A stretch of 32,000 bases of DNA from Halorhodospira halophila SL1 (lineage in GTDB: Bacteria > Pseudomonadota > Gammaproteobacteria > Nitrococcales > Halorhodospiraceae). The notes under the pieces are model-generated. The model was given only the letters and a program-made list of their open reading frames with translations. It searched no databases and had not been told where the DNA came from. Made by a program: the position numbers and the translations under genes. Shown here piece after piece: positions 3,140 through 30,418 of this stretch (its first letter is position 1; every line of letters starts with the position of its first letter). Location: contig NC_008789.1 of NCBI RefSeq assembly GCF_000015585.1, forward strand, positions 690,001 to 722,000. Direction: 5' to 3'.

Positions 3140-3167
3140 TCGCCCCCACCACGGAGAGATCCTGATC

Positions 3168-3932: not shown

Positions 3933-4083
3933 GCCGGTGGCCTGATGTGGACCTACTGCCCGGGAAGGCACCCCAATTCAGTGGAATGGCCCCACCACTT
4001 CCCGTGGAACGGGCCCCCCACATGCGGTGGAACGGGCACCCCTCATCACGTGGAACAGGCCACCCACTTGACTGGAATCCCCA

Positions 4084-4888: not shown

Positions 4889-4944
4889 GGATCACCTCGT
4901 CGAATGGTAGCTATTGAGGTGTCCACGGTTGGTGGGCAAGACCA

Positions 4945-5609
4945 CTCTCGGCCATCGAGTTGTCGTAACAGTCGCCCACCGAACTCATCGAAGGGCGCAC
5001 CCCGGCCTCCCGGCAGCGGTTGCCGAAGGCAATGGATGTGTACTGCGACCCACGGTCCGAGTGGTGTATGACGGCCTCTGGACGGCGCTGCCAGATCGCC
5101 ATCTCGAGGGCGTCGAGGACGATCTCCGTGCGCATGTGGCCAGCCATTGACCAGCCCACGACACGCCGTGAGAACACGTCGATGACGACAGCGAGGTACA
5201 GGAATCCCGCCCACGTTGGAACGTACGTGATATCCGCGACATAGAGCTGGTCTGGCCCATTTGCGGTGAAGTCCCGCTCGACGAGATCCGGCTTGTCTTC
5301 GCTGTCCCGGTCCGGAATCGTCGCAATCGTTCCCTTGCGGCGGCTGACGCCTTGCAGGCCAGCGGCCCGCATCAGGCGGGCGACTCGCTTTGCGGAGAAG
5401 CGCCAGCCTTCATCCCGGAGCTCGGCATGAATCCGCGGTGCACCGTATGTGCCGCGAGAATTGTCGTGGATCGCCTCGATCCGCTCCGTCAGAGCGGCGT
5501 CTGTCGCCGCACGGACTGAGCGGCCGCGATTGCGCCACGCGTAGAAACCGCTGGGGGAGACGCCCAGTACCCCGCAAAGCGTGGCAGTGCTGTAATAGGC
5601 CCGATTCAC
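4945..5609 (-). pseudogene. IS3-family OrfB, truncated after CYDNSMAES
   Basis: DDE motifs HSDRGSQYTS and CYDN are present. The ORF then reads through into the neighbouring IS inverted repeat (GLAHQPWTPQ). Confidence 0.8.
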
Positions 5610-5926: not shown

Positions 5927-5983
5927 CGTGGAAACCTCCTTTTACCAAAGCATCAAGGTCTCCACGGAAGCGGATCAACTCCA

Positions 5984-6726
5984 CAATCCCTTTTCCAACA
6001 GGGCTAGGTTCGGACGTACCAGTGGCTCAGTGCTCGAACGCTGCTCGGTGTCTTAATCCCTTTTCCAACAGGGCTAGGTTCGGACCCGGCATGAACGGCA
6101 AGGGAACCCAAAGTACCGCCGTCTTAATCCCTTTTCCAACAGGGCTAGGTTCGGACCCATGCTTGTCAGTCAACCCAGCCTTACCGAAGCCGTCTTAATC
6201 CCTTTTCCAACAGGGCTAGGTTCGGACGTACCAGTGGCTCAGTGCTCGAACGCTGCTCGGTGTCTTAATCCCTTTTCCAACAGGGCTAGGTTCGGACCCG
6301 GCATGAACGGCAAGGGAACCCAAAGTACCGCCGTCTTAATCCCTTTTCCAACAGGGCTAGGTTCGGACCCATGCTTGTCAGTCAACCCAGCCTTACCGAA
6401 GCCGTCTTAATCCCTTTTCCAACAGGGCTAGGTTCGGACTCGTGGACCTCGGGCGGCCGAGCGATCCCACTTTGTCTTAATCCCTTTTCCAACAGGGCTA
6501 GGTTCGGACTTGGTGGGAGCATGGAGGTCGGTGTCGATGGCCACTTCGTCTTAATCCCTTTTCCAACAGGGCTAGGTTCGGACCAAAACACGGTGAGCAT
6601 GTTGGTCATCCGTCAGGTGTCTTAATCCCTTTTCCAACAGGGCTAGGTTCGGACAGAGTTTGTTCGCCTACCCTACGACCCGGAGACCTAGTCTTAATCC
6701 CTTTTCCAACAGGGCTAGGTTCGGAC
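5984..6726 (-). CRISPR. CRISPR array 1: 11 repeats (trailer-most truncated by IS), 10 spacers of 34-38 nt
   Basis: 36-nt repeat, plus-strand gtcttaatcccttttccaacagggctaggttcggac. The transcribed sense is inferred as GTCCGAACCTAGCCCTGTTGGAAAAGGGATTAAGAC, giving the 8-nt tag ATTAAGAC. Repeats start at 5984 (partial), 6050, 6121, 6192, 6262, 6333, 6404, 6474, 6548, 6619 and 6691. Confidence 0.97.
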
Positions 6727-6949
6727 TCCTCGGCCCCATAAAGCCTTTCTGATCATGGGGTTACGAAGGGGGTTACCGCAAATCGCGGGACCCGCGGAGT
6801 TATGAGCACCTCTCATCCGCACCTTATTCCTATTTGACAAAGAGCCCGCTCCATTGGCGCAACATCTGATCATATAACAGCAGCTAAAGCATACGCCAGG
6901 GGCGGCAAGCTTGCTGTGCCCGGCTTCCAGCATCGGGGTCTGGGCAAAG
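6727..6949 (-). promoter_or_regulatory. CRISPR leader of array 1
   Basis: Lower-GC region abutting the last repeat. It shares conserved blocks with 25238-25400 and, in reverse complement, with 21440-21565. Confidence 0.65.
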
Positions 6950-9884: not shown

Positions 9885-11042
9885 TCAGCAGGGCTCCACG
9901 TGCGCCTTCCACTCCCGGACGATATCCCGCAGCCGGGGCAGCTCATCCGGGCCAATGAGTCGGATCCGATGCTGCCGGGCGCGCTCTCGCATAATATCCG
10001 TCGGCTGCCGGGCGCTGACCATCCAACTGGTACCGAAGAAGCCGCGCAGGTTATCGCCGATGCTGTCCAGCTTGTAGAGTTGCTGGTCATCGGCGGCTTC
10101 GTTGCCGTGGCGCAGGGTCTTGCACTCCACCACCAACAGACGATTGACATGGATGGCAACCACATCTAGTTCGTTGCGGGCCTTGTCGGTACCTTCCCAG
10201 GTGCCTTCCACCCCCATGGCCACATCGTCGAGCCCCTCATCCCGGAGCCGGTGGTAGACATACTCCTCCAGCCAGCCGCCGTTGAGAAAGCGAGTCCGCT
10301 CCTCGTCGAGGAAGGTCACCTCGGCACCACCCTCCCAGTCCAGCAAGCCCTGGTCGCGGAGCCAGCCCAGATTATTGGCCCAGCGGCCGTACGGTGGGTC
10401 ATCGAAGGCCTGGTCACGCGCGACCAGCCGCCCCTCCCTGTCCAGAGACCGGGAAGCGACCGCATTCAGCGCACCCAGGAAATCGCCATGGTCCCTGGCG
10501 ACCTCCGCTAGCCTCTTGGCCACCTGCTTGCGCTCGCCAGCCTCACGCTGCCAGTCCTCGTCCGCGGAGGCAGCACGGTGGTAGCGAAACCCCTGGGCGC
10601 GCAGGCTGATTGGCACGTCAAGCACCGAGGTCTGTGGCGTCGGCGCCTCGGCCCGTTCATTCCCCTCCGGCAAGTGCTCCAACCGGCCATGGGCGGTATC
10701 GGTGTAGATCCGGCGGTGTACACTATCCCGCAGCATCTCGAGAAACCCCAGAGCCATGAGCTTGTTGCCGCCCGTCAGATTGAGGACCACCTCGTCCGCC
10801 GCCGGCAACTCTTCCAAGATCCCCAGGGCGAATTCGTGCAACTGGGGCAGGTCGGCATCCGGGGCATTCTCGAAGGTCTGAACCGCAATACCGGCCTCTT
10901 CTTCCAGCTTGCGGAGCAACTGAGCCTGCCCGGCCATGGCCGGCGTAACAATGAGAGCCGCATGCTCCGGGCGCTCCATGAGCGCGGGTATCAGATTGCC
11001 GGCAAGCTGGGCAGACACCAGCTGGATGTGGAGTCGGGTCAT
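9885..11042 (-). CDS. can2: CARF + PD-(D/E)xK nuclease effector (Can2/Card1 type)
   Basis: N-terminal CARF with NLTGGNKLMA. C-terminal ELDVVAIHVNRLLVVECKT gives the D...ExK motif. An aaggag RBS lies before ATG 11042. Confidence 0.8.
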   Translation of the reverse strand: MTRLHIQLVSAQLAGNLIPALMERPEHAALIVTPAMAGQAQLLRKLEEEAGIAVQTFENAPDADLPQLHEFALGILEELPAADEVVLNLTGGNKLMALGFLEMLRDSVHRRIYTDTAHGRLEHLPEGNERAEAPTPQTSVLDVPISLRAQGFRYHRAASADEDWQREAGERKQVAKRLAEVARDHGDFLGALNAVASRSLDREGRLVARDQAFDDPPYGRWANNLGWLRDQGLLDWEGGAEVTFLDEERTRFLNGGWLEEYVYHRLRDEGLDDVAMGVEGTWEGTDKARNELDVVAIHVNRLLVVECKTLRHGNEAADDQQLYKLDSIGDNLRGFFGTSWMVSARQPTDIMRERARQHRIRLIGPDELPRLRDIVREWKAHVEPC

Positions 11043-11071
11043 GGGATTGGTCTCCTTCGAGTGATAGGGCA

Positions 11072-11383
11072 TCAGTTGCCCGGTTCCACTTCGCCCAGGC
11101 TCTCTACACGGTAGGCCTCGAGACGGGCGCCAGCGGCCTCCATGTCGTCGGCGGTTAGTTCTTGGCCGCGCAACTGCGGTGGGAGATCCAGCGACAGATG
11201 GAGATACCGCCCACCACGCTCGCATACAGCGGCCGCAAGATGCACGGGGAGCGTTCCGATCACCCTATCCCCAACCTCCAGCTCGGCCGGATTTAGATGA
11301 TCCACCTGCCGATCAACCGCCAGGCCCCGGCGCTGGGCCCATTCCACAGCCCCCGAGTGACGGGTCACGAACCAAGTCGTCAT
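11072..11383 (-). CDS. csx16: Csx16 (VVA1548-family CRISPR-associated protein), copy a
   Basis: 103 aa. Reads MTTWFVTRHSGAVEWAQRRG...GDRVIGTLPVHLAA...YLHLSLDLPPQLRGQELTADDM. About 55-60 percent identical to the copy at 23008-23310. Confidence 0.7.
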   Translation of the reverse strand: MTTWFVTRHSGAVEWAQRRGLAVDRQVDHLNPAELEVGDRVIGTLPVHLAAAVCERGGRYLHLSLDLPPQLRGQELTADDMEAAGARLEAYRVESLGEVEPGN

Positions 11384-11615
11384 GGTGGTGCTGTCTCCTT
11401 TTCCTTACCTTCCTTTGGGTCAGCCGGCCTCTTTACCTCGTTGGCAGCCGCCTCAGGGTGCCCGTCACGGTAGACCCTTTTCGGCGCCAGAGAGCGGCTT
11501 GCAAGCTTACGACCACCAGCTCCTCTGGCCCTGCAAACTTGCGGTTTGTAAGGTCAACCATGACACTAAGCTAGCCTTGCGGAGGATCGCTCGAAACGCA
11601 CACGGAGTGCTGCTC

Positions 11616-12749
11616 ATGACCGCCGACACCGACGCGCCTCATACCCTCCTCTGCGTCACCGGGCTGACGCCACAGGTGGTCACCGAGACGCTCTACGCCC
11701 TCGCGCAGGAGGGGGCACACGCCCTTCCGGATCGCATCGAGGTCATCACCACGACCGAGGGCCGGCGCCGCCTGGCGTTGACCCTGCTCGCCGAGCACGG
11801 CGGCCACGGCTACCTGGACCGACTTTGCGCCGACTACGGTATCGACCGCGGCGCCCTCGCCTTCGACGTGGACAGTATCCACGTTGTCGGCGGCGCCGAC
11901 GACGAGCCCCTCGCCGATATCGTCACTGAGGCGGACAACGCCGCGGCCGCCGACCGGATCCACGAGCGCATCCGCACCCTGACCGAGCAGCCCGGGCGGC
12001 TGCACGTCTCCCTCGCCGGGGGACGCAAGACCATGGGCTTCTACGCCGGTTACTCGCTCTCGCTCTACGGCCGGGGGCACGACCGGCTCAGCCACGTGCT
12101 GGTCAATCCGCCCTTCGAGTCGCACCCGGACTTCTTCTACCCACCACCGACGCCGGCAACCCTCCAGCTACCCGGGCGCAACGACATCATCAGCACCGCC
12201 GAGGCCGAGGTGCGTCTCGCCGAACTGCCTTTCGTCCGGCTGCGCGAGGAGCTCGGCGAGGAGCTGCCGCATCAGGGGCTATCCTTCAGCGAGGCGGTCG
12301 AGCGCGCCCAGCAGGTACTGATCCCGCCCCAATTGACCATCGATCTTACTGAGCGCACCGTCACGCTCCAGGGGCAGCCGATCACCCTCTCGGCAACCCA
12401 CTTCCTCTGGCTGACCTGGCTGGCCGACCGCGCTCGGCAAGAGGCCCCAGCGATCGCCTTCGACGAGGCCGCGGTTGATGAACTGACGGGCTACGCCGAC
12501 TGGCTTGAAGGTCGCCTCTCACAGCTGCATGAGAGCCTGGCCTCGGCGCGCAAGGAGATCGAGCGAGAAGGCCGCTCGAACTACTTCGAGCGCACCCGCT
12601 CGCGACTCAACAAGGCCATCGCCGAGCGCAGCGGCCTGCCCACCCGGGCGGCAGCGCGCTACCAGATCCACACCCACAGCAGCCGGCCCCAGACCACCTA
12701 CGGCCTGAAGCTCGAGCCGGAGCAGATTCGTATCGAGGGGGAGCCGTGA
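11616..12749 (+). CDS. CARF-domain protein, Cas_NE0113-like, with uncharacterised C-terminal domain
   Basis: Reads LLCVTGLTPQVVTETLYAL...HVSLAGGRKTMGFYAGY...HVLVNPPFE. The C-terminal 150 aa or so are helical with no recognisable nuclease motif. A ggag RBS lies before ATG 11616. Confidence 0.7.
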   Translation: MTADTDAPHTLLCVTGLTPQVVTETLYALAQEGAHALPDRIEVITTTEGRRRLALTLLAEHGGHGYLDRLCADYGIDRGALAFDVDSIHVVGGADDEPLADIVTEADNAAAADRIHERIRTLTEQPGRLHVSLAGGRKTMGFYAGYSLSLYGRGHDRLSHVLVNPPFESHPDFFYPPPTPATLQLPGRNDIISTAEAEVRLAELPFVRLREELGEELPHQGLSFSEAVERAQQVLIPPQLTIDLTERTVTLQGQPITLSATHFLWLTWLADRARQEAPAIAFDEAAVDELTGYADWLEGRLSQLHESLASARKEIEREGRSNYFERTRSRLNKAIAERSGLPTRAAARYQIHTHSSRPQTTYGLKLEPEQIRIEGEP

Positions 12750-21565: not shown

Positions 21566-21671
21566 GTCTGAGACGAGCCCTGCTTGAAAAGGGATTAAGA
21601 CAAGGTCTTGATGTGACCCATGGTGGCCACATCCTGTCTGAGACGAGCCCTGCTTGAAAAGGGATTAAGAC
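21566..21671 (+). CRISPR. CRISPR mini-array 3: 2 repeats, 1 spacer (34 nt), variant repeat
   Basis: GTCTGAGACGAGCCCTGCTTGAAAAGGGATTAAGAC occurs at 21566-21601 and 21636-21671. It differs at 6 of 36 positions from the array 1/2 repeat and keeps the same 3' half. Confidence 0.85.
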
Positions 21672-22132: not shown

Positions 22133-23011
22133 TTAACGGTCTTCGTGATCGTATTCGATATCGATCACGCTGATGCGAGCACCAACGGCCTTGTCGACGC
22201 GCACATACTGGCAGCGCCGCCCTTGAGCCTGCGTGAATAAGGCAGCAGCCACCGAGGCCTTCTTGGTCCCCCCGGTGATGTCCACAAGAACATCTCTCTC
22301 CCGTAGCCGGAGCCCCCGTGTTTTGATCAGACCGTTCCAGACCGATTCGATCGCCCGCCAGACCGCGCTGACGTCCTCAAAATCGCAGCCGTGTGCCATT
22401 TCGGTTGAGTGCGTATCCAGACCCTCGACCGTCACCTGCCGATCCGCCCCGTCAAGGAGGCTTTCGACGAGCTGCCGAAATACCGGAAACTGCTTGCACG
22501 ATCCATGGGTCCCGGAGGAGTAGATGACCACGACGCGCTCGAGCTTGGGCAAGTGGGCGCGGATGGCCTCCAGAGGCATCCTCCAGTTGCTCAGCGCATC
22601 GTTCACCAGCCCGAGGTCCGTAGAGCTATTCAACGGACGCACTCCCCCCTTCGCGAGGTCGTTGACCAAGTTGTTAGGGTTCGGGTGAGCGCTCAACAGA
22701 AGGATCAGTACCCGGCGCGGTTGCGGGTTCTCCTCGTCGGTCGCGTGCATAGACGGCGGGATTTCATGGTAAATCAGATAGATCCAAACCCCGATTAATA
22801 CCAGTACCGCAGCGATAAGGGCCGCCGTGTATCCCCACTGGTCGGCGAGAAAGCCCCCCCCATCTTCCAGGAGCCGCAAGAGCCCACTCGACAGGGTGTC
22901 GATGGATAGCAGCACAAGCAGAACAACGACCAGCGCCTTGCCGGTTCGAAATCCCAGTCGGCGGCAGGTGCGAATCAGCTCACGCCCAAGATCTCCGGGT
23001 ACCCTTTTCAT
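22133..23011 (-). CDS. Membrane-anchored CARF protein (two predicted TM helices + CARF), Cam1-like
   Basis: Hydrophobic segments are ALVVVLLVLLSIDTLSSGLLRLL and YTAALIAAVLVLIGVWIYLIY. The C-terminal Rossmann-like domain reads RVLILLLS...VVVIYSSGTHGS...VLVDITGGTKKASVAAAL. ATGA overlap with csx16b. Confidence 0.7.
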   Translation of the reverse strand: MKRVPGDLGRELIRTCRRLGFRTGKALVVVLLVLLSIDTLSSGLLRLLEDGGGFLADQWGYTAALIAAVLVLIGVWIYLIYHEIPPSMHATDEENPQPRRVLILLLSAHPNPNNLVNDLAKGGVRPLNSSTDLGLVNDALSNWRMPLEAIRAHLPKLERVVVIYSSGTHGSCKQFPVFRQLVESLLDGADRQVTVEGLDTHSTEMAHGCDFEDVSAVWRAIESVWNGLIKTRGLRLRERDVLVDITGGTKKASVAAALFTQAQGRRCQYVRVDKAVGARISVIDIEYDHEDR

Positions 23012-23310
23012 CTGTCAGCCTTGACCTGCTGCACGTGATAATACGCGAGTCGGGCATCCATGCCGTCCATCTCATCGGCACTGAGCTCTCGGCCCCGGCG
23101 CTCCGGAGGGATATCCAGAATCAAGTGGCAATACCACGCGCCACGGCAACAGACCCCTTCGGCAAGGTGCACGGGGAGTGTACCGATCACTGTATCGCCG
23201 GCTGCGACCTGCTCGACATCCAGGTGCTCGACCTGCCGATCGACATCGAATCCCTGCCGCTTAGCCCACTCTGTAGCCCCGGGATGACGGGATACGAACC
23301 ATACTGTCAT
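23008..23310 (-). CDS. csx16: Csx16 (VVA1548 family), copy b
   Basis: Reads MTVWFVSRHPGATEWAKRQG...GDTVIGTLPVHLAE...YCHLILDIPPERRGRELSADEM. Confidence 0.7.
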   Translation of the reverse strand: MTVWFVSRHPGATEWAKRQGFDVDRQVEHLDVEQVAAGDTVIGTLPVHLAEGVCCRGAWYCHLILDIPPERRGRELSADEMDGMDARLAYYHVQQVKADR

Positions 23311-23544: not shown

Positions 23545-24075
23545 ATGAAGCGTTACCTGCCGAGTGTTCTGCTAACCGGTGTCGTGCTTAGCTCTGGTGC
23601 AGCCAATGCGGCGCCGGCCCCGTTCGGTCTCGAGATCGGTGCTTCCTGCGATTCCGCGACGCAGTACAACGCGCAGTCGCAGGGCGTATCTGCTATCACC
23701 GACGGACCTGTCTACGAGATCGGCGGCAACCAGATTGACTTCGAAGGGCTGCAGTCCGTGACGGTGATCTGCGATGAGCAAACGAACGTAGCCGCCGTGG
23801 TTGCCGATTTTCAAAAGCGCTTCGGGGGGGCGACCTTTAATCGGCTTGTCGACATGTTGCGAGATGAGTATCGGCTTGTCGAGATGAACGACGCGCATGT
23901 CGGGGATCAGAATGCACGGTTCCAGGCTGATGAAGTCCATATCCTTGTTGAAGAGCCCCACATGAGCCGAACCACCTCACTCGTCTACAAGACGGAGGCG
24001 TTCAGCGATGCGTTTGCCGCTTACCAGCAACAGCAACAACGCCGGCAACAGGAGAAGGAAGCAGGTCAACTCTAA
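23545..24075 (+). CDS. Hypothetical secreted protein
   Basis: Signal peptide MKRYLPSVLLTGVVLSSGAANA|AP. A ggaggg RBS is present. Q-rich C-terminus (QQQQQRRQQEKE). Local GC is lower. Confidence 0.55.
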   Translation: MKRYLPSVLLTGVVLSSGAANAAPAPFGLEIGASCDSATQYNAQSQGVSAITDGPVYEIGGNQIDFEGLQSVTVICDEQTNVAAVVADFQKRFGGATFNRLVDMLRDEYRLVEMNDAHVGDQNARFQADEVHILVEEPHMSRTTSLVYKTEAFSDAFAAYQQQQQRRQQEKEAGQL

Positions 24076-24110
24076 CTCACGCCCATCGAGCCGGGAGGGG
24101 GGATAATCCA

Positions 24111-24638
24111 ATGTGGAACTGGCTACGTGAATGGTTTCTCCAAGTGGGCGCGGGCCACGCCAGGGAAGACACGGACGGTGGCACCGACACGAATGAAAGG
24201 ATGATCAACCCGGCTACGGGCTTGCCCATGGTTGGCTCCGTGGACACGGAAGGGAACCCCTACGGAACAGCCCCCCCGTCGAGCGGACAAGAGGACATAC
24301 CTACGAACGAGTACCCGTCGAGCCACGCAGGCGGGGGAACACCCTGCGAGATGGGCTTTGAGGAGTCAATGGGCGACTCGGGTCCGGTTGACGATCCCCA
24401 CACGCCGCGAATCAACCCGGCCACTGGGCTTCCCATGACTGGATCGCTCGATACCGCAGGCAATCCTTACGGCACTGATACAAGCACTGGGCCCGAGCAT
24501 GGGCATACGGGACTAGCTGACGATGGCACCCCATCTCCATTCAATGATGATATCGATCATAGCCGGCTGTCTGGCGGGTTTTCCGGCCTGGACGACGACT
24601 GGGGCGTTGGCGGATCCTCCAGCCCCTTCGATGACTAA
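24111..24638 (+). CDS. Hypothetical acidic G/P/D-rich protein with duplicated INPATGLPM-GS-DT-GNPYGT motif
   Basis: Two motif copies occur: MINPATGLPMVGSVDTEGNPYGT and RINPATGLPMTGSLDTAGNPYGT. A gggagggggg RBS region lies before the ATG. Confidence 0.5.
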   Translation: MWNWLREWFLQVGAGHAREDTDGGTDTNERMINPATGLPMVGSVDTEGNPYGTAPPSSGQEDIPTNEYPSSHAGGGTPCEMGFEESMGDSGPVDDPHTPRINPATGLPMTGSLDTAGNPYGTDTSTGPEHGHTGLADDGTPSPFNDDIDHSRLSGGFSGLDDDWGVGGSSSPFDD

Positions 24639-24987
24639 GAGCAAGGAATAATTTTTTCAGGGCCATGGAAGGCCCTCCCTGGATGACCCGTCCGCATGAT
24701 TTTTCACTTTCCCGTCCCGCTGTCCTAGCACCCCACCCGATTTACCAAAAAGATTTCTCCATGGACCAGCACAAAGGACCCGGGACCCCAGTGCTTTCGG
24801 GGCTTTTTTTTACCCCGTCGAAGGCGCTCGTAGCAGCAACTCCGAGACCGCCTTCCGACCGCATCCAGCTAAATCCCTTGGCACCGCTACTGGATCCCCA
24901 CCCTTCCGTTCTTGCCCATGCACCAGAGGATGGCTTCGGAACTCAGATCGAAAAGCCTCCCTCCAAGGACTCCGCGGGAGAATTTAG

Positions 24988-25237
24988 GAACCTAACCCCT
25001 TTCCAACAGGGCTAGGTTCGGACAAGAAGAGGCTAAGGCCATCATCGAGGTCCTCGGCGAGTCTTAATCCCTTTTCCAACAGGGCTAGGTTCGGACGAGC
25101 TTGGCAAGGAGATCAAGGAGGAGGAGTCCCGTCTTAATCCCTTTTCCAACAGGGCTAGGTTCGGACAAGGGACACTCCGGAAAGAGTGGCCCCGTTGGGA
25201 GGTCTTAATCCCTTTTCCAACAGGGCTAGGTTCGGAC
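24988..25237 (-). CRISPR. CRISPR array 2: 4 repeats (trailer one degenerate), 3 spacers
   Basis: Same 36-nt repeat as array 1, at 25061, 25131 and 25202. A degenerate copy, gaacctaacccctttccaac..., lies at 24988-25023. Spacers are 37, 34 and 35 nt. Confidence 0.93.
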
Positions 25238-25470
25238 TCCTCGACTCTGTACGCCCTTTATTATCAGCGCGTTACAAAGGGTGTTAGCGAGAATCGCGGA
25301 ATCCTGCGAGTTATGATTGCCTCTCATCCGCACATTATTCTCATTTGTAAAATGATCGTGATCTGCCTACCTCACTGAGATTCTAAAGCAAATGGGCAGC
25401 CGTCAGCCAGGGGTGTACGCCCATGGCGGCTCAACTGCTCGCCCACGGCGCAAGGCCGCGGGCACGAAGC
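25238..25470 (-). promoter_or_regulatory. CRISPR leader of array 2
   Basis: Reads tcctcgactctg..gttacaaagggtgttagcgagaatcgcgg..gttatgattgcctctcatccgcacattattctcatttg. This parallels leader 1 block by block. Confidence 0.6.
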
Positions 25471-25707
25471 TCAGTCATCGCGCTCGCCTCGCTCGACGCA
25501 GGCGAAATACACCCTGATCAGGAGGAGCGGCCGCAACTCAAGCGCTTTAGCCAGATCCGCGATCGTGTAGATCGTTGGGTTGGCCCGACAGCGACAAAGG
25601 TCGTAGAGACTCTGGCGACTGATCCCTGCCCGGCGGGCCACTTCGGAGAGCGAGAGCCCACGGGCGCGGGCCTGCTTGCGGATGAGCAACTCAAGCGCCG
25701 TGGACAT
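25471..25707 (-). CDS. XRE/Cro-type HTH protein, paralog of 6950-7186
   Basis: 78 aa. MSTALELLIRKQARARGLSLSEVARRAGISRQSLYDLCRCRANPTIYTIADLAKAL is about 80 percent identical to the copy next to cas1. Confidence 0.75.
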   Translation of the reverse strand: MSTALELLIRKQARARGLSLSEVARRAGISRQSLYDLCRCRANPTIYTIADLAKALELRPLLLIRVYFACVERGERDD

Positions 25708-25882
25708 CGCCGTTCTCCGCAATCGCTGGCGTACCGAGATAGACGCACTCGGCTGCCAAGGCTTGAGCAGCACGGCGCTGCCAGCGCCGGTGCAAACCGG
25801 CATGTACCTCCCAGCGGCTGAAAAGCGCTTTATTCGCGACTTCCAACCTCGTCCCACGCCGGTCGATATAGAGCGTCCCCAC
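25691..25882 (-). pseudogene. cas1: cas1 remnant with large internal deletion
   Basis: (GTG)GTLYIDRRGTRLEVANKAL is joined directly to WEVHAGLHRRWQRRAAQALAAEC. These match Cas1 residues about 1-20 and about 283-305 of the intact copy, so roughly 260 codons are missing. Confidence 0.8.
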
Positions 25883-26392
25883 TCCTTTGCTCCCCTGCTG
25901 CAGGCTTGGCAGCAGATTGGCACAGAGGGCGACAGGACAGCGGTAGCGGCAATCTTGCGGAACACACCCCACCCTCCGAACGCGGACCATGGATCCCGAC
26001 TCGATACCGAGCTGCTCTGCTTCCTCAGGCGCCAGCTCCAATGCGGCATCCACCGGCTCGGGCGGCCGATACTGACCGCGCCCGGGCGTCATGCGCTCGA
26101 GGGCGATAACCTCACCGTCGGCGATCCAGGCTATCTTCAGCGGAGCCGCCAAATTGTCCATGTGGAAGACGGGCTCGCTCTCCTCCGGCCATGTAAACAG
26201 GATCCGCTCCGACCGGATCTGCCCCGGGCTGGCGTGCTGAAACCCCCTGGCCCGGGTCTCGGGGGTGGCCGCGAGCCGGACCTCGACGGGATCTCCGTCA
26301 ATGAGGACCGATACTTGCGGAAAGCCCTCGACCCCCTTGGAGCAGCCAAGGGGCACCAACACGGTTAGGGCCAAGATCTTCAGGTACCGCAT
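25691..26392 (-). CDS. DUF192-like lipoprotein; ORF reads through into the cas1 upstream region and remnant
   Basis: Lipobox in MRYLKILALTVLVPLGC|S. The DUF192-like core reads FTWPEESEPVFHMDNLAAPLKIAWIADGEVIALERM. There is no stop where the fragment copy at 21665 stops. Confidence 0.6.
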   Translation of the reverse strand: MRYLKILALTVLVPLGCSKGVEGFPQVSVLIDGDPVEVRLAATPETRARGFQHASPGQIRSERILFTWPEESEPVFHMDNLAAPLKIAWIADGEVIALERMTPGRGQYRPPEPVDAALELAPEEAEQLGIESGSMVRVRRVGCVPQDCRYRCPVALCANLLPSLQQGSKGVGTLYIDRRGTRLEVANKALFSRWEVHAGLHRRWQRRAAQALAAECVYLGTPAIAENGDVHGA

Positions 26393-26481
26393 CGGCACGG
26401 TCTCCACCAACCGGATGGGTCACGGCGCCTTTGCCGATCACGCCGGCTCCAGAAACCCTATGGGGGCCATGAGGGCCCGCG

Positions 26482-27255
26482 TCATCCGGCTTGTCTGCGA
26501 TAGCTGTCCCAGGTGAATTGCAAGGCGGTCCCATCCTCCAGCAGGCGGTCCATGACGCGCTCGCCCAGGGTTCCGGTGAGTTCCTCGTAGCCGAGGTTGG
26601 AGATGACCACCGTCGGCCGCATGTCGGAGTAACGCCGGTTGAAGACCTCGAAAAGCACCATGCGCTCGTGCTCAGAGCCGGTCTGCACACCCACCTCGTC
26701 CAGGACCAGCAGCGGCACGCCCGCGAGCCAATCGAAGACCTTTTGCTCGCTTTGCTCGCTTGCGCGGTCGTAGGTTCGACGCACCTGGCGGACCGCATCC
26801 GAGACGCTGGTGTAGTGCGCCTGGCGCTGGTGGTCGTTAATGACCCGCCGCGCCATGGCACACGCCAGATGCGTCTTACCGGTACCGACCCCACCCGAGA
26901 GGATGAGGTTGGTGCCCGCCTGGAGACGCTCGGGGAAAGTCTCGGTATAGCGGCGACAGCATTCACGAACCCGACCCGCCTGCTCTGTCACCGCCTCAAA
27001 GGTGTCGAACGTGGCGGTTTGATACCGCGCCGGGATGCCGGCCAATCTCAGCATGGCCCGGGTCCGCCACTCCCGACGCCGCTCCAGATCCTCTCGTCGC
27101 TGACGCTCGCGCTGGGCCTCGAGGCAGTGCGGACACTGCCCTCCAACCCAACGATCGCCTAACCGGGTGTAGATGGCCGAATAGTGCCCGTGCTCCGGGC
27201 AGTGCTCCTGCTGCTCGCAATACCCACTGTTGAGGGCGTGCCCGATGCTTTGCAT
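26482..27255 (-). CDS. DnaC/IstB-like AAA+ ATPase (helicase-loader type) with N-terminal Cys/His cluster
   Basis: Walker A is LSGGVGTGKTHLA and Walker B is LLVLDEVG. N-terminal CEQQEHCPEHGH...CPHC. Confidence 0.8.
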   Translation of the reverse strand: MQSIGHALNSGYCEQQEHCPEHGHYSAIYTRLGDRWVGGQCPHCLEAQRERQRREDLERRREWRTRAMLRLAGIPARYQTATFDTFEAVTEQAGRVRECCRRYTETFPERLQAGTNLILSGGVGTGKTHLACAMARRVINDHQRQAHYTSVSDAVRQVRRTYDRASEQSEQKVFDWLAGVPLLVLDEVGVQTGSEHERMVLFEVFNRRYSDMRPTVVISNLGYEELTGTLGERVMDRLLEDGTALQFTWDSYRRQAG

Positions 27256-27263
27256 ACTGCCTC

Positions 27264-28244
27264 CTACCAGTCGGGGTCCGTTTCGAAACCGGCGGCTGCG
27301 AACTTCTCGGCCTCGGCTTGGTAGCTCTTCTCCAATGACTGCGTGTTGGGAGCGGCCGGGCCGGCCCCGCCGACTTGCCGGCCGCGCTCGATGGACTCGA
27401 GCCAGCGCTCGTCTTTCAGGTAATTCCCCGGGTTGGGGATATACCCCGCGCGCCAGCGCCGGTCCTCACGCTGTCGACGTTCGATATCGCTGAGGATGGT
27501 GTCGATGCGCCACCACAGTCCCCGCTTGCGGAAAATCTGGTAGGCCTCGCTCTGCTTGACCTTCCTCGGGTAGGCCGCCCAGAAGCGCTCGAAGATGGCG
27601 CGGCTATCGGTCGTGGCCGACGACGGCCCCTGCCCGCTCTGCTGCACGGGGGCCTTGCCGGCGTCCGCACACTCCGCGTCACACACCGGTGCGCCCTCTA
27701 ACCTGGAACCGTCCGCGGTGTGTGATGGGGCTCTCTTCCGGACACCGGAGACCGGAGGTGTGCCGGGATGAGGCTCGTCAGGGCGTGCCGGCTTTATGCC
27801 GGTTTCCGTGCCGAGATCCCCCGTCCACATCCCGCCATGAGCGGATTCAGTCGTGTCGGCATGCGTGCCGGGATGATCGTGCCGGGATTGTGTCGGGTTT
27901 GTGCCGGGTTTTTCCTGGGAAGAAGAATCCGTCTGCGCCAGCGGACAGTAGAAGATCAGGCGCTTGCCCTGCGTACAATCGATGGCCAATCCCGACCGGA
28001 TGAGCCAGTCGACGGCACGCCGCACGGACGACTTGCTCGGGGTGCCGGTGTCTGTGAGCCCTTGGTGCGGCTCGACATAGCTCGCTTCCCGCAACGACTG
28101 CCAGCTGATGCGACGCTGCGCGCCAACCAGGCCCGTGCTGTAGTCCATGTGCGGACGGATGCCCAGGATATAGACACGCAGCGCCAGGCTGGGGAGGCCG
28201 GCCAGGGCCTCCAGTTCTTCCTGGCTGAGCTTGATGGCACTCAT
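27264..28244 (-). CDS. Replication-initiator-like protein (wHTH N-terminus, phage/plasmid O/DnaD-like C-terminus)
   Basis: Reads LALRVYILGIRPHMDYSTG...VRRAVDWLIRSGL. The C-terminus reads FERFWAAYPRKV...IPNPGNYLKDERW. Its ATG overlaps the upstream stop. Confidence 0.55.
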   Translation of the reverse strand: MSAIKLSQEELEALAGLPSLALRVYILGIRPHMDYSTGLVGAQRRISWQSLREASYVEPHQGLTDTGTPSKSSVRRAVDWLIRSGLAIDCTQGKRLIFYCPLAQTDSSSQEKPGTNPTQSRHDHPGTHADTTESAHGGMWTGDLGTETGIKPARPDEPHPGTPPVSGVRKRAPSHTADGSRLEGAPVCDAECADAGKAPVQQSGQGPSSATTDSRAIFERFWAAYPRKVKQSEAYQIFRKRGLWWRIDTILSDIERRQREDRRWRAGYIPNPGNYLKDERWLESIERGRQVGGAGPAAPNTQSLEKSYQAEAEKFAAAGFETDPDW

Positions 28245-28798
28245 CACCGCCCCTCCTCCACCGCCGGCACACCCTGGCGTCGCGCGGCGTACTCTCGCTG
28301 GATGGAATCGGCCTCCTGGACGAGCTGCCATACGGCCTGAGCAGGCACGCGGCAGCGTTGCGCGACACGCAAGTAGCGCTCAGGGCCGGGCAGACCATGG
28401 TGTTGTTTCCAGGATCTCCAGACGGCGTCGGCCTGCTCCGGCTGCAAGCGCCGCGGCCGGCCGGGATCCCGGGCCACCCCCAGCGTCCGCCGGCGACGGG
28501 CGACCTCGGCGGGCGTCATACCGAACAGCGCTTCCATCATCGCCCCATGGGCGTGGTGGCGGATGAGCTCATCGGCCAGGTCGTCTTCCTGCGCACGGCG
28601 GCGAGCCCGCTCGATAGCGGCCGCCAGGCGTTCGGGGTGGACGTGGATATCGAGGAAGTAGCGGGCTTGGGACAGCAGGTACAGGTACTCCCGGAATGTG
28701 AGCTTCTCGATCTGCTCGACGCTGCCCGGCTCCTGCTTGCACTCGAGGGCGTGCAGAATGGCCTCGTGTGCGAGCTTGTTGGGGCTCATCGTGCTCAT
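28244..28798 (-). CDS. Hypothetical ICE-backbone protein (DUF2857-like?)
   Basis: 184 aa. A gggaggg RBS lies 7 nt before ATG 28798. Helical. Sits between the parB-side and replication genes, as in the ICE maintenance modules I recall. Confidence 0.5.
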   Translation of the reverse strand: MSTMSPNKLAHEAILHALECKQEPGSVEQIEKLTFREYLYLLSQARYFLDIHVHPERLAAAIERARRRAQEDDLADELIRHHAHGAMMEALFGMTPAEVARRRRTLGVARDPGRPRRLQPEQADAVWRSWKQHHGLPGPERYLRVAQRCRVPAQAVWQLVQEADSIQREYAARRQGVPAVEEGR

Positions 28799-28800
28799 GG

Positions 28801-29523
28801 CTAGCCCTCCCATAGGTCCATATTGCGCTCGGTGGCGGTCTTGCGGAGTTGGCGACAAAGCTGAATCAGCTGCACGAAATCGTGGATGTCGGCGTCCGGA
28901 ACGGAGGGGTCCGACCAGAACTCCATCGCGATCCGGGGGTAGACGGGCGACCCCATGCGGCTGCGCACGGTGTCGGGGCTTTCCTTCGCCAGATGGGGCA
29001 GCTCGTAATTGCCCGGTAGGTGTTGCCGGTGGGCGTCGCGAGCCAGGGCTTCGGAAACAGCGAGCAAGGTCCACCAGATCCACTGGCGGGCCGGGCGGCC
29101 GGATTCCACGTCACGCATTGCCGGCAACTCGATGAGATACCCGACCCCGTGATCCCACGAGTGCAGGTACCGATCGAGCTCATGGCGTTGTGCGATCCGG
29201 TGGGCGAGACGATAGATGTGTTCGCGCAGATCCGGGACGGAGTCGTACTCAACCTCATCTTCCGGGGGTTGCGGAGGGGGCGCCTTAGCCTTGGGCCGGT
29301 TGAGCACCGCTTCGGGCTCAAACGGAGTGGACTCTTCCAGGCTCCCGCCCCCCTCCTCGCCCCAGGATGGCGCGTGCGCGTCGGCGCTATCCTTGGGGGA
29401 CGATCTCTCTACCCCCCCCAGCGTCTGCCGAGGTGCTCTCCTCCGGGGTAGCGCCCTCCATTCCCAGTACTGAAGCGGGCTGATCCGCCATGTGGTCGGC
29501 GCGTTTTGGGAGCGGGTGGCCAC
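28801..29523 (-). CDS. Hypothetical protein; start uncertain (listed start overlaps parB by 137 nt)
   Basis: Open frame with a coding-like C-terminal 150 aa or so (YRLAHRIAQRHELDRYLHSWDHGVGYLIEL). The true start is probably internal, for example GTG near 29307. Confidence 0.4.
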   Translation of the reverse strand: MATRSQNAPTTWRISPLQYWEWRALPRRRAPRQTLGGVERSSPKDSADAHAPSWGEEGGGSLEESTPFEPEAVLNRPKAKAPPPQPPEDEVEYDSVPDLREHIYRLAHRIAQRHELDRYLHSWDHGVGYLIELPAMRDVESGRPARQWIWWTLLAVSEALARDAHRQHLPGNYELPHLAKESPDTVRSRMGSPVYPRIAMEFWSDPSVPDADIHDFVQLIQLCRQLRKTATERNMDLWEG

Positions 29524-30382
29524 TCAGGACTGTGTCCATTTCGTAACGCACGGCACGGCGGTCGATGCCGAGCGCTTCCGCCATCCGGGCCGCAAGCTCC
29601 TCCCGACCCTCCTCGGGGTCCCACTCGGCGGCATCCGTATTGGCCAGAGCCTGCTCCCAGAGGATGTCGAAATCCTCAGCGTCCCGCTGATAGTGGTGCC
29701 AGACCTGGCAGGCCGCGTCGTGGATCCTCCTCAGGTAGTCGAGCGTTCTGGCCCCGAGACTGTTCAGCGCCTCTGGAATCGCGGCCAGCAGGTGTTGCGC
29801 CGCAAACTCGTACCGGAGCAGTTGACGCTTACTGATCGTGTAACCAAGGGCATGGAGCCGGGTAATGAAGGCATTCCGGCTGAGACGCTCCCCCACTTCG
29901 GATTCCAGATGCCTCCGGAGGTGCTCCAGCGCAAGGGCCTTATCGATCAGCGCGAGCTCGCCTCGAAGCTCGTTCTCGACCAGGTGGCTGGTTAGAACGG
30001 TGGTCTCACCCTGCCAGGGGTGGTAGAGGCAGTAGATCCGCGCGAAAGCCTCATCCCCCGTTTCGGCGTAGAGCTCACGCAGAATGCGTAAACGGGTATT
30101 GCCGCCGGCACAGGTGATGTAATGCTCATCCCCTGGCCGGCGGGTCACATCCAGGCTGTTGTTGAGCCCGCGCTGCGCAGCAATCGACTGCTTAATCTCC
30201 TCGTAACGGGGATTCTCCAGGCGGCGCGGGTTGTCCTCGTACTCAACCACCTGGTCGATGGAAAGCACCATCTGGGTCACCGTGACCGGGTCACCCGGTC
30301 GGTCCAGGGACTGCTCCCGGTTGCCGTAGTGCCCCTGCCACAGACCCTGACGGACCTTCTCGGTCAGGCCGCGTTTTGCCAT
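29387..30382 (-). CDS. parB: ParB-family (ParB/Srx N-terminal domain) protein, ICE type
   Basis: Reads EYEDNPRRLENPRYEEIKQSIAAQRGLNNSLDVTRRPGDEHYITCAGGNTRLRIL. Confidence 0.8.
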   Translation of the reverse strand: MAKRGLTEKVRQGLWQGHYGNREQSLDRPGDPVTVTQMVLSIDQVVEYEDNPRRLENPRYEEIKQSIAAQRGLNNSLDVTRRPGDEHYITCAGGNTRLRILRELYAETGDEAFARIYCLYHPWQGETTVLTSHLVENELRGELALIDKALALEHLRRHLESEVGERLSRNAFITRLHALGYTISKRQLLRYEFAAQHLLAAIPEALNSLGARTLDYLRRIHDAACQVWHHYQRDAEDFDILWEQALANTDAAEWDPEEGREELAARMAEALGIDRRAVRYEMDTVLSGHPLPKRADHMADQPASVLGMEGATPEESTSADAGGGREIVPQG

Positions 30383-30418
30383 ATGCGTCTCCGGCGCTCT
30401 GAGCTGCGCTCTTGCTGG

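What the first reader, a model, noticed from the sequence alone, without database searches (positions are those of the whole stretch)
22133..23011. Membrane-anchored CARF protein (2 TM + CARF), Cam1-like but longer
The 292-aa protein has two strongly hydrophobic about 22-aa segments in its first 85 residues. A Rossmann-like domain follows, ending in the CARF-type loop DITGGTKKASVAAAL. No enzymatic domain is visible.

A TM+CARF architecture is known for Cam1, which depolarises membranes on cA4 binding in a Nitrosococcus type III-B system. This protein appears to have two TM helices and a longer linker, so it may be a distinct family or a variant pore.
Basis: partly seen in the sequence, partly recalled or inferred. 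Interest (0 to 1): 0.75.

Follow-up and report, generated by a model that had tools for sequence, protein, structure and literature searches.

The report
Two-helix membrane CARF effector with Csx16
This gene encodes a membrane-anchored sensor of CRISPR alarm nucleotides, a catalogued but untested cousin of the membrane-depolarising protein Cam1, so it is a sound but only moderately new finding.

Summary
Window 22133-23011 (-) encodes a 292-aa protein with two hydrophobic helices (about residues 24-50 and 59-82). A canonical CARF domain follows, and no enzymatic domain is detected. The window comes from Halorhodospira halophila.

The gene lies in a type III-B CRISPR-Cas locus. Its ATG overlaps the stop codon of csx16, which encodes a ring nuclease shown experimentally to be cA4-specific.

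The closest solved structures to a high-confidence AlphaFold2 model (pLDDT 90.7) are the Cam1 CARF domain, then Can2, Crn1 and Csa3. All of these bind cA4.

The protein is not a Cam1 family member:
- Cam1 has one TM helix and 206 aa.
- Cam1 homologues match PADLOC profile PDLC01946. This protein and all 60 relatives tested match PDLC01947 ("CARF8--CARF_TM"), PDLC01053 ("TM+CARF") and PDLC01168 ("CARF, 2 TMs").
- Profile-profile similarity to Cam1 is remote (hhalign probability 80%, 94 columns).

The family is large, with at least 196 clusters at 50% identity. It keeps the 2-TM architecture and usually sits in type III loci, often beside a ring nuclease.

The best explanation is a cA4-gated membrane-perturbing effector that Csx16 resets. 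This is inferred, not shown. The subfamily is already catalogued bioinformatically and has not been characterised experimentally. Interest is moderate.

The parts
22133..23011 (-). Gene for the 292-aa 2-TM + CARF protein (member of PADLOC family PDLC01947, 'CARF8--CARF_TM')
   Evidence: ORF. 100% identical to a Halorhodospira halophila hypothetical protein. PADLOC PDLC01947 E = 2.5e-124 over the full length.
22868..22936 (-). TM1 hydrophobic core (residues 26-48; AF2 helix 24-50). Contains D38 and S41/S42 in its outer half.
   Evidence: Hydropathy, AF2, family conservation.
22766..22831 (-). TM2 (residues 61-82; AF2 helix 59-81)
   Evidence: Hydropathy peak of 2.62, AF2. Conserved positions in the family alignment at 68, 72, 75 and 79.
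22145..22753 (-). Cytoplasmic canonical CARF domain (residues about 87-289)
   Evidence: The AF2 model has pLDDT of at least 85 in every 10-residue block of residues 81-290. Foldseek top hits are Cam1 CARF (E = 1.7e-5, TM-score on target 0.56-0.61), Can2, Crn1 Sso2081, Csa3, Cami1 and Cad1.
22553..22588 (-). Family signature N-W-R-M-P-L-E-A-I-x-x-H (residues 142-153). It follows a family-specific insertion of about 33 residues after beta-1/S107.
   Evidence: W143, M145, P146 and A149 are at least 90% conserved and H153 is invariant in 60 sequences. Insertion length is 18-43 residues, mean 33.
22262..22282 (-). CARF motif II, D-I-T-G-G-T-K (residues 244-250)
   Evidence: D244 and G248 are invariant; T246, G247 and K250 are at least 90% conserved. 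The motif aligns to DLTGGK of Cam1 and DITGGRK of Crn1 Sso2081.
23008..23310 (-). csx16 (100 aa). Its TGA stop overlaps the ATG of the TM-CARF gene (ATGA).
   Evidence: Pfam PF09652 E = 5.4e-41. TIGR02620. The overlap was read. Csx16 is an experimentally confirmed cA4-specific ring nuclease (PMC12409355).
12746..21335 (+). Type III-B effector module: cmr1, cas10/cmr2 (13813-16746, GGDD at residues 742-745), cmr3, cmr4, a probable cmr5, cmr6 and cas6
   Evidence: NCBIfam and PADLOC hits. GGDD motif.
9885..11225 (-). Card1/Can2-like CARF + PD-(D/E)xK nuclease, a second cOA-responsive effector in the locus
   Evidence: PF09002 E = 8.5e-63 and PF23400. PADLOC CARF4--CARF_PDDEXK.
11382..12749 (+). 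NE0113-type (CARF5) CARF protein, the third CARF protein of the locus
   Evidence: PF09623 E = 3.6e-67. TIGR02584.
5977..6731 (.). CRISPR array, 11 repeats of about 36 nt
21566..21671 (.). Two-repeat mini-array (variant repeat, opposite orientation) between cas6 and the TM-CARF gene
24985..25242 (.). CRISPR array, 4 repeats

Best explanation
The protein is a cyclic-oligoadenylate (most likely cA4)-sensing membrane effector of the Halorhodospira halophila type III-B CRISPR-Cas system.

Shown here:
- An N-in/C-in hairpin of two TM helices holds a canonical CARF domain on the cytoplasmic face.
- The gene is translationally coupled to csx16 and sits beside a Cmr module whose Cas10 keeps the GGDD cyclase motif.

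Inferred:
- Target-RNA binding by the Cmr complex makes Cas10 synthesise cA4.
- cA4 binds at the interface of a CARF dimer. The contacts would include S107 (motif I), the W-R-M-P start of helix alpha-1 and the D-I-T-G-G-T-K loop.
- The resulting movement passes through the short TM2-CARF linker to the TM hairpins of a dimer-of-dimers (tetramer).
- This opens or creates an ion-conducting path, depolarises the membrane and arrests growth of the infected cell.
- Csx16 then degrades cA4 and resets the effector.
- The protein probably acts in parallel with the Card1/Can2-like nuclease of the same locus.
For: - **Architecture.** Two conserved hydrophobic helices with positive-inside charge.
- **CARF identity.** PADLOC CARF_TM profiles at E = 2.5e-124, 4.2e-64 and 4.7e-43. 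All significant Foldseek hits are CARF proteins solved with cA4, led by Cam1.
- **Ligand-site residues.** S107, T246 and K250 are conserved. They correspond to Cam1 S75 and K160 and to Crn1 K106.
- **No enzymatic domain**.
- **Context in the window.** The Cmr1-6/Cas6 module and three CRISPR arrays are within 16 kb, and Cas10 has GGDD.
- **Context elsewhere.**
  - 11 of 13 genomic loci that encode relatives carry cas or CARF genes.
  - Metagenomic relatives lie next to RAMP genes.
- **Ring-nuclease link.**
  - There is an ATGA overlap with csx16.
  - Csx16 lies within 4 kb in 4 of the 13 loci.
  - The gene pair is identical in H. halochloris.
  - A DUF1874/Crn2-type gene is adjacent in another lineage.
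  - A fused Csx16-TM-CARF profile, PDLC01940, matches both proteins.
- **Literature on ring nucleases.** Csx16 is cA4-specific, and Cam1 co-occurs with ring nucleases in 81% of loci (PMC12409355).
- **TM domain is more than an anchor.** Conserved positions include G20 (95%), W39/F40 (about 65%), D42 (48%), W59 (68%), F68 (70%) and A79/R80.
- **Mechanistic precedents.**
  - Cam1 causes depolarisation (PMC10808066).
  - Cap1 has a 2-TM hairpin tetramer whose pore is opened by cA4 (10.1101/2025.11.13.688252).
  - Chp1 uses a CARF dimer-of-dimers to gate a tetrameric pore (10.64898/2026.08.05.743128).
Against: - Nothing functional was tested. Ligand identity, oligomeric state and pore formation all rest on analogy.
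- No multimer model could be made.
- Cam1's conserved pore-lining Asp has no clearly conserved counterpart. This protein has D38, but that column is G/S/N in most relatives, and D42 is present in only 48%.
- This protein departs from the family consensus at several conserved TM positions: T39 for W, A68 for F, and I80/Y81 for R/R.
- Conserved S107 and K250 are equally compatible with ring-nuclease catalysis.
- Similarity to Cam1 is remote.
Confidence: 0.6

Rival explanations
1. The protein is a membrane-tethered ring nuclease or cOA sink. The CARF domain would degrade or sequester cA4 at the membrane, making it a regulator of the Card1/Can2-like nuclease. The TM hairpin would only localise it.
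For: - Crn1 ring nucleases (Sso2081, Sis0455) are among the top structural and sequence matches.
- The Ser after beta-1 (S107) is invariant and K250 is at least 90% conserved. Ser/Thr plus Lys are the residues described as crucial for cA4 cleavage in Crn1 (PMC8284326).
- Invariant H153 and conserved R144 are residue types seen in metal-independent ring nucleases.
Against: - The same Ser and Lys positions bind cA4 in Cam1, for which intrinsic ring-nuclease activity is suspected to be absent but has not been tested. Their conservation therefore does not discriminate.
- A dedicated ring nuclease (Csx16, or Crn2 in another lineage) is encoded next to the gene or fused to it. That would be redundant for a ring nuclease.
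- The NCBIfam Crn1 model scores 13.9 bits against a cut-off of 125.
- The TM region carries conserved non-hydrophobic positions.
Confidence: 0.12
2. The protein is a cOA-activated membrane effector that does not form a defined ion pore. Instead it could disorder the lipid, cluster into higher oligomers, or control a partner membrane protein.
For: - The mode of action of the TM effector Csx23 on the membrane is still unresolved.
- There is no conserved charged pore-lining residue.
- A CARF dimer (2-fold symmetry) has to be reconciled with a pore of unknown symmetry.
Against: - The three TM CARF effectors with a known mode of action (Cam1, Cap1, Chp1) all depolarise through tetrameric pores or pore models.
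- No partner membrane gene is conserved next to family members.
Confidence: 0.15
3. The protein is simply a long orthologue of Cam1, in the same family, with an extra N-terminal helix.
For: - The Cam1 CARF domain is the best structural hit and the best PDB sequence hit for the family profile (E = 0.009).
- Both groups fall in the 'CARF8' set of PADLOC profiles, and both match the older 'CARF, 2 TMs' profile PDLC01168.
- A published census pipeline labels any TM-containing protein that hits the Cam1/Csx1 CARF profiles as Cam1 (PMC11229360).
Against: - Cam1 homologue fragments match PDLC01946 best (E down to 3.4e-51). PDLC01947 does not appear in the up-to-25 best families listed for any of the four fragments.
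- All 60 members of this family match PDLC01947.
- phmmer of the protein against PDB sequences finds no Cam1 match.
- hhalign probability is only 80% over 94 columns, with 18% identity.
- The TM number, the length and the insertion of about 33 residues all differ.
Confidence: 0.1

Closest known systems
[quoted passage not shown]
   Same: - N-terminal TM region plus a C-terminal canonical CARF domain, with no enzymatic domain.
- The Cam1 CARF domain is the closest solved structure (Foldseek E = 1.7e-5, TM-score on target 0.56-0.61).
- Shared D-x-T-G-G-(x)-K motif and the Ser after beta-1.
- Type III locus, co-occurrence with other CARF effectors and with ring nucleases.
- Same PADLOC 'CARF8' group.
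   Different: - One TM helix and 206 aa in Cam1, against two TM helices and 292 aa here.
- A different subfamily profile (PDLC01946 against PDLC01947).
- Only remote sequence similarity.
- An insertion of about 33 residues between beta-1 and alpha-1, and the invariant W-R-M-P...H signature. Neither is seen in the Cam1 homologue fragments available here.
- Cam1's conserved pore-lining Asp is not clearly conserved here.
Cap1 (CRISPR-associated pore 1, Parafilimonas terrae; bioRxiv 10.1101/2025.11.13.688252)
   Same: - A short cytosolic N-terminal segment, then a TM1/TM2 hairpin, then a cytosolic cOA sensor.
- It gives a solved precedent in which TM2 forms the inner ring and TM1 the outer ring of a tetrameric pore opened by cA4.
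   Different: - Cap1's sensor is a small non-canonical 'CARF-like' domain. It binds one cA4 per tetramer through an R(X3)QQ(X10)L motif.
- Here the domain is a canonical CARF and the motif is absent.
- There is no DUF4579.
Chp1 (HAD-TM4-CARF; bioRxiv 10.64898/2026.08.05.743128)
   Same: A canonical C-terminal CARF domain follows the last TM helix through a short linker. Its CARF dimer-of-dimers gates a tetrameric pore, which is the likeliest geometric model for this protein.
   Different: Chp1 has four TM helices and an N-terminal HAD phosphatase domain. This protein has neither.
Crn1 ring nucleases (Sso2081, Sis0455)
   Same: Similar CARF fold, a near-identical D-I-T-G-G-x-K motif, and a conserved Ser after beta-1.
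   Different: Crn1 proteins are soluble, stand-alone proteins of about 180 aa. The NCBIfam Crn1 model is far below its cut-off here (13.9 against 125 bits). This protein has a conserved 2-TM domain and its own adjacent ring nuclease.
PADLOC/CARF-census profiles PDLC01947 'CARF8--CARF_TM', PDLC01053 'TM+CARF', PDLC01168 'CARF, 2 TMs' and PDLC01940 'CARF8--CARF_CSX16_TM'
   Same: This protein matches the first profile end to end at E = 2.5e-124, and all 60 relatives match it too. The Csx16 + TM-CARF gene pair corresponds to the fused architecture of PDLC01940.
   Different: These are bioinformatic catalogue entries with no described function. No experimental work on this subfamily was found. A preprint of August 2026 lists only Cam1, Cap1, Csx23 and Chp1 as the TM-domain effectors studied so far.

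Membership tests
CARF superfamily (canonical CARF domain) | Rossmann-like alpha/beta fold that superposes on solved CARF domains | tested here: met
   For the AF2 model (pLDDT 90.7), all 14 Foldseek hits at E <= 0.001 in the PDB are CARF proteins: Cam1, Can2, Crn1 and Csa3. The lower-confidence model gave the same picture.
CARF superfamily (canonical CARF domain) | Motif I (Ser/Thr after beta-1) and motif II (D-x-T-G-G...K after beta-4) | tested here: met
   S107, D244 and G248 are invariant. T246, G247 and K250 are at least 90% conserved in 60 sequences. Motif II aligns to Cam1 and Crn1.
CARF superfamily (canonical CARF domain) | Binds a cyclic oligoadenylate | not testable with these tools
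   Needs ITC or a similar binding assay on the purified domain.
CARF8 'CARF_TM' subfamily (PADLOC PDLC01947) | Full-length match to the subfamily profile | tested here: met
   E = 2.5e-124, 411.7 bits, profile positions 1-248 of 248. 60 of 60 relatives also match.
CARF8 'CARF_TM' subfamily (PADLOC PDLC01947) | Two N-terminal TM helices before the CARF domain | tested here: met
   Hydropathy peaks of 2.35 and 2.62. AF2 helices 24-50 and 59-81. Conserved across the family. No dedicated TM predictor was available.
CARF8 'CARF_TM' subfamily (PADLOC PDLC01947) | Encoded in type III CRISPR-Cas neighbourhoods | tested here: met
   The window holds Cmr1-6/Cas6 plus arrays. 11 of 13 genomic loci and the loci carry cas or CARF genes.
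Cam1 | Single N-terminal TM helix, short linker, CARF domain; about 206 aa | tested here: not met
   This protein has two TM helices and 292 aa. The Cam1 architecture is from PMC10808066.
Cam1 | Sequence-family membership | tested here: not met
   phmmer against the PDB finds no Cam1 match. The family profile against Cam1 8T64 gives E = 0.009 over the motif II region only. hhalign probability is 80%. Cam1 homologue fragments match PDLC01946, whereas this family matches PDLC01947. Full-length NhCam1 was not retrieved, so the TM regions were not compared directly.
Cam1 | Conserved pore-lining Asp in the TM helix (D17 in NhCam1) | tested here: inconclusive
   This protein has D38 in TM1, but that column is G 42%, S 18% and N 17% in the family. 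D42 occurs in 48%.
Cam1 | cA4 binding by a CARF dimer, tetramerisation and membrane depolarisation | not testable with these tools
   Needs biochemistry and in vivo assays. No multimer prediction was available.
Cam1 | Frequent co-occurrence with an extrinsic ring nuclease | tested here: met
   csx16 overlaps the gene start. Csx16 or DUF1874 lies nearby in several related loci. The figure of 81% for Cam1 is from PMC12409355.
Cap1 | TM1/TM2 hairpin at the N-terminus | tested here: met
Cap1 | Non-canonical CARF-like domain with an R(X3)QQ(X10)L motif | tested here: not met
   The motif is absent from this protein and found in only 1 of 60 relatives. The fold matches canonical CARFs. Cap1 coordinates were not among the PDB hits, so no direct superposition was made.
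Crn1 ring nuclease | Match to the curated Crn1 model; soluble stand-alone CARF | tested here: not met
   NF040581 scores 13.9 bits against a cut-off of 125. The protein has a conserved 2-TM domain.
Crn1 ring nuclease | Catalytic Ser/Thr and Lys in the CARF pocket | tested here: inconclusive
   S107 and K250 are present and conserved. The same positions are ligand-binding residues in Cam1, so their presence does not show catalysis.

The most novel reading that the evidence does not exclude
This 2-TM CARF subfamily may be a mechanistically distinct class of cOA-gated membrane effector. Canonical two-fold CARF dimers would drive a Cap1-like double ring of TM hairpins. The family-specific insertion of about 33 residues, with the invariant W-R-M-P...H signature over the ligand pocket, would act as a lid. 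That lid could confer a ligand preference other than cA4, or a built-in ring-nuclease timer, making this a self-limiting pore backed up by Csx16.
Probability: 0.2. Interest if true: 0.6.

Novelty: new member of a known kind. Interest (0 to 1): 0.35.

Why it matters
Membrane-acting CARF effectors are the least understood arm of type III CRISPR signalling. As of August 2026 only four effectors with TM domains had been studied: Cam1, Cap1, Csx23 and Chp1.

This subfamily is abundant, with at least 196 clusters at 50% identity. It combines a canonical CARF sensor with a minimal two-helix membrane domain. It could therefore show how a two-fold-symmetric sensor gates a small pore.

Its tight pairing with Csx16 makes it a clean system for studying reversible, ring-nuclease-reset growth arrest.

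For annotation, the H. halophila 'hypothetical protein' can be named a CARF-TM (CARF8) type III ancillary effector, but it should not be called Cam1.

Tried and rejected
- **Curated libraries.** Pfam and NCBIfam gave only sub-threshold CARF hits. They cannot classify this protein.
- **phmmer against PDB sequences.** Nothing relevant was found.
- **Word-indexed homologue search.** It found only 8-9 relatives. The exhaustive profile search was needed to reveal the size of the family.
- **Retrieving full-length NhCam1.**
  - A 92-aa fragment read from the PDB alignment returned only truncated Cam1 homologues.
  - The Cam1 TM helix could therefore not be aligned to TM1 or TM2.
- **The search for related loci with the 60-sequence alignment.** This failed for lack of a sufficiently conserved stretch. 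The 8-sequence alignment worked, but it was restricted to the [NSK]WRMP[LI]EA[IL] pattern and so is biased towards Gammaproteobacteria.
- **Published lists.**
  - The Cam1 homologue table and the 'cam1' sheet of the census supplement are not held as text.
  - I could not check whether this protein has already been labelled Cam1.
- **CARF census paper.** Makarova et al. 2020 (PMC7498327) is not in the library. The meaning of 'CARF8' rests on the PADLOC profile names and on my own recollection.
- **Foldseek against viral structures.** No hit at E <= 0.001.
- **Promoter and terminator scan.** Nothing above the shuffled expectation around the operon.
- **Neighbouring genes.**
  - The 176-aa secreted protein and the TraS-like protein are conserved only within Halorhodospira.
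  - I rejected them as parts of the module.
- **Cap1 membership.** Rejected on fold and motif.
Full report
**1. The observation**

The ORF at 22133..23011 on the minus strand is real. It starts with ATG and encodes 292 aa. An identical protein is recorded as a hypothetical protein of Halorhodospira halophila on a 2.68-Mb contig, so the window is from that chromosome.

Kyte-Doolittle 19-residue averages peak at 2.35 (residues 27-45) and 2.62 (residues 62-80). An AlphaFold2 model built on a 60-sequence alignment has mean pLDDT 90.7 and pTM 0.81. It gives helices 24-50 and 59-81, followed by an alternating beta/alpha domain running to residue 288.

The two hydrophobic regions are found at the same positions in nearly all of 60 relatives that share only 23-40% identity with this protein. 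Net charge is +6 before TM1 and -3 in the 12-residue loop. Family means are +3.5, -0.3 and +2.8 for the N-terminus, the loop and the post-TM2 segment. This fits a hairpin with both ends, and therefore the CARF domain, in the cytoplasm.

The quoted loop DITGGTKKASVAAAL is at residues 244-258. It is not the end of the domain, because a helix and a beta-hairpin follow. No catalytic domain is detected by Pfam, NCBIfam or PADLOC.

**2. What the C-terminal domain is**

Curated general libraries give only sub-threshold CARF hits: PF23400 at 15.2 bits, TIGR02710 at 18.5 bits and Crn1 at 13.9 bits.

PADLOC-DB contains profiles for exactly this architecture:
- PDLC01947, 'CARF8--CARF_TM': E = 2.5e-124, all 248 profile positions matched.
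- PDLC01053, 'TM+CARF': E = 4.2e-64.
- PDLC01168, 'CARF, 2 TMs': E = 4.7e-43.

All 60 relatives tested match these three profiles.

Foldseek of the high-confidence model against the PDB returns only CARF proteins at E <= 0.001. Cam1 CARF is first (8T66/8T65; E = 1.7e-5 to 2.6e-5; TM-score normalised to the target 0.56-0.61). Can2, the ring nuclease Crn1 Sso2081 and Csa3 follow. Cami1, Cad1 and Csm6 come just below. The first, shallower model gave the same set.

A profile of the family searched against PDB sequences finds Cam1 first (E = 0.009) and Crn1 next (E about 0.02). Both matches lie over the D-x-T-G-G-x-K loop. The refutation criterion 'not CARF by profile or structure' is therefore not met. 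The domain is a canonical CARF.

**3. Family and conserved features**

An exhaustive profile search of 1.84 billion cluster representatives finds 2357 proteins at E <= 0.001, 1273 at E <= 1e-10 and 196 at E <= 1e-30. Almost all of the best 150 are 250-320 aa and match end to end. The weaker hits probably include other CARF families.

Conserved residues in the 60-sequence alignment:
- Invariant: L106, S107, H153, D244, G248, Y269.
- At least 90% conserved: G20, W143, M145, P146, A149, T246, G247, K250, Q268.

S107 follows beta-1 (CARF motif I). D-I-T-G-G-T-K follows beta-4 (motif II). Between S107 and W143 the family carries an insertion of 18-43 residues, mean 33.

The signature W-R-M-P-L-E-A-I appears to correspond to the E-V-P-x-x-x-I start of alpha-1 in a Cam1 homologue fragment (P0157). 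This is my own inference and not an alignment result. If it is right, W143-P146 sit at the ligand pocket.

In Cam1, S75/N76 after beta-1 and K160 of DLTGGK form the cA4 platform. K160 maps one residue before K250.

The TM region shows more than bare hydrophobicity: G20 (95%), W39/F40 (about 65%), D42 (48%), W59 (68%), F68 (70%), and A79/R80 at the cytoplasmic end of TM2. The H. halophila protein departs from the consensus at several of these positions (T39, A68, I80/Y81).

**4. Genomic context**

The gene is the second in a two-gene minus-strand unit. The TGA of the upstream 100-aa gene overlaps its ATG (ATGA). That upstream gene is csx16 (PF09652, E = 5.4e-41; TIGR02620).

Within about 1 kb on the other side lies a complete type III-B module on the plus strand:
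- cmr1;
- cas10/cmr2, with an intact GGDD cyclase motif at residues 742-745;
- cmr3, cmr4, a probable cmr5, cmr6 and cas6.

Before this module come an NE0113-type CARF protein and, divergently, a Card1/Can2-like CARF-nuclease. cas1 lies at 7188-8150. Three CRISPR arrays with the same repeat family lie at 5977-6731, 21566-21671 and 24985-25242.

Related loci show the same associations.
- Among 13 genomic loci that encode relatives (Thioalkalivibrio, Halorhodospira, Marichromatium, Lamprocystis, Puniceibacterium and MAGs), 11 have detectable cas or CARF genes nearby.
- Four of those 13 have csx16 within 4 kb. In Marichromatium gracile it is immediately upstream, inside a Cas6-NE0113-Cmr-Csx16-TMCARF-Can2-Cas1 array.
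- H. halochloris has the same overlapping csx16/TM-CARF pair next to cmr genes.
- A 31%-identical metagenomic relative sits beside a DUF1874/STIV_B116-like gene, the Crn2/AcrIII-1 ring-nuclease fold.
- Another relative directly follows RAMP genes.

PADLOC profile PDLC01940, 'CARF8--CARF_CSX16_TM', describes a fusion. The window's Csx16 matches its positions 3-92, and the TM-CARF matches positions 252-375. This is Rosetta-stone support for a functional pair.

**5. Mechanism**

Csx16 has been shown to be a cA4-specific ring nuclease. Cam1 is found with ring nucleases in 81% of loci, which was interpreted to mean that it lacks its own off-switch (PMC12409355). All the closest structural relatives of this CARF domain were solved with cA4. 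The co-resident Card1/Can2-type effectors are cA4-activated (PMC11229360).

I therefore propose the following sequence:
1. Target-RNA-activated Cas10 makes cA4.
2. cA4 binds the CARF dimer.
3. The change is transmitted through the short TM2-CARF linker (residues about 82-100, including a beta-strand at 87-94) to the TM hairpins of a dimer-of-dimers.
4. Ions leak, the membrane depolarises and growth stops.
5. Csx16 degrades cA4 and resets the system.

What is shown is the architecture, the fold, the motifs, the context and the Csx16 linkage. What is inferred is the ligand identity, the oligomeric state, the pore and the phenotype.

Three studied effectors serve as templates:
- Cam1: depolarisation and a tetramer model (PMC10808066).
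- Cap1: a 2-TM hairpin with TM2 as the inner ring and a pore opened by cA4.
- Chp1: a canonical CARF dimer-of-dimers gating a tetrameric pore.

**6. Comparison with known families**

*It works like Cam1 but fails the Cam1 membership test.*
- Cam1 has one TM helix, not two, and 206 aa, not 292.
- phmmer finds no similarity to the Cam1 crystal sequence.
- hhalign of the family against an alignment of Cam1 homologue fragments gives probability 80%, E = 1.4e-5, 94 columns and 18% identity.
- Cam1 homologue fragments match PDLC01946 best, at E = 3.4e-51 to 7.4e-34. PDLC01947 is not among the up-to-25 best families listed for any of them.

The two groups are sister subfamilies inside the 'CARF8' set, and both are covered by the older 'CARF, 2 TMs' profile.

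*It is not Cap1.* The sensor is a canonical CARF domain, the R(X3)QQ(X10)L motif is absent, and there is no DUF4579.

*It is not Chp1.* It has no HAD domain and only two TM helices.

*It is not a Crn1 ring nuclease by the curated model*. The conserved Ser and Lys leave intrinsic cA4 cleavage open.

**7. Novelty and verdict**

The 'distinct family' is already catalogued in PADLOC-DB under exactly this description, and this very protein scores 411.7 bits against that profile.

I found no experimental work on the subfamily. A preprint of August 2026 states that only Cam1, Cap1, Csx23 and Chp1 have been studied among effectors with TM domains.

I rate this a new member of a known kind. It is a reasonable target for experiments but not a surprise to a specialist, so interest is 0.35.

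The most novel reading that the evidence does not exclude is that the family-specific lid insertion and the W-R-M-P...H signature give a different ligand preference or an intrinsic timer, on a Cap1-like double-ring pore driven by canonical CARF dimers. I give this a probability of about 0.2.

**8. Limits**

- No dedicated TM predictor and no multimer prediction were available.
- Full-length NhCam1 could not be retrieved.
- The CARF census paper and the published Cam1 homologue lists were not readable.
- The genomic-locus sample is biased by the peptide pattern used to find it.

Noticed in passing
window 1413-4067: Inverted arrays of tandem repeats of about 23 bp (1413-1534 and 3966-4067) flank an IstA-like transposase (1438-3015) and IstB (3111-3932). 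This is an IS21-family element with multiple terminal repeats. It appears to be inserted into an IS3-like integrase ORF (3978-4577), and a second rve ORF lies at 4911-5609.
   Followed up: partly
window 5985-6509: Inside the 11-repeat CRISPR array, a 212-nt block (three repeat-spacer units) is present in 2.5 copies at 94% identity. This means a set of spacers is duplicated within the array.
   Followed up: no
window 21566-21671: A two-repeat mini-array lies between cas6 and the TM-CARF gene. Its repeat is a variant and it has the opposite orientation to the two larger arrays.
   Followed up: no
window 23545-24638; L017 6394-7459: A 176-aa protein with a signal-peptide-like N-terminus and a 175-aa TraS-like protein with repeated INPATGLPM..G..DT.GNPYGT motifs lie next to csx16. 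The same pair sits between cmr1 and csx16 in H. halochloris, but it is absent from the other related loci.
   Followed up: partly
window 25471-31240: The right flank carries genes typical of an integrative or conjugative element: an HTH regulator, an IstB/DnaC-like ATPase, DUF2857 and ParA. The CRISPR-Cas locus may border, or ride on, a mobile island. GC content drops from about 0.70-0.73 in the cmr genes to about 0.59-0.63 across 21-26 kb.
   Followed up: no
L014 8957-9310 and 11143-13059; L015: In a metagenomic lineage, the TM-CARF homologue P0008 is adjacent to a DUF1874/STIV_B116-like gene (Crn2-type ring nuclease), a Peptidase_C14 (caspase-like) gene and an NE0113 CARF gene. A different ring nuclease is therefore paired with the same effector family.
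   Followed up: partly
window 9885-12749 and 22133-23011: One type III-B locus has three CARF proteins (Card1/Can2-like nuclease, NE0113/CARF5 and TM-CARF) plus Csx16. Such three-way combinations are described as rare in the published census.
   Followed up: partly
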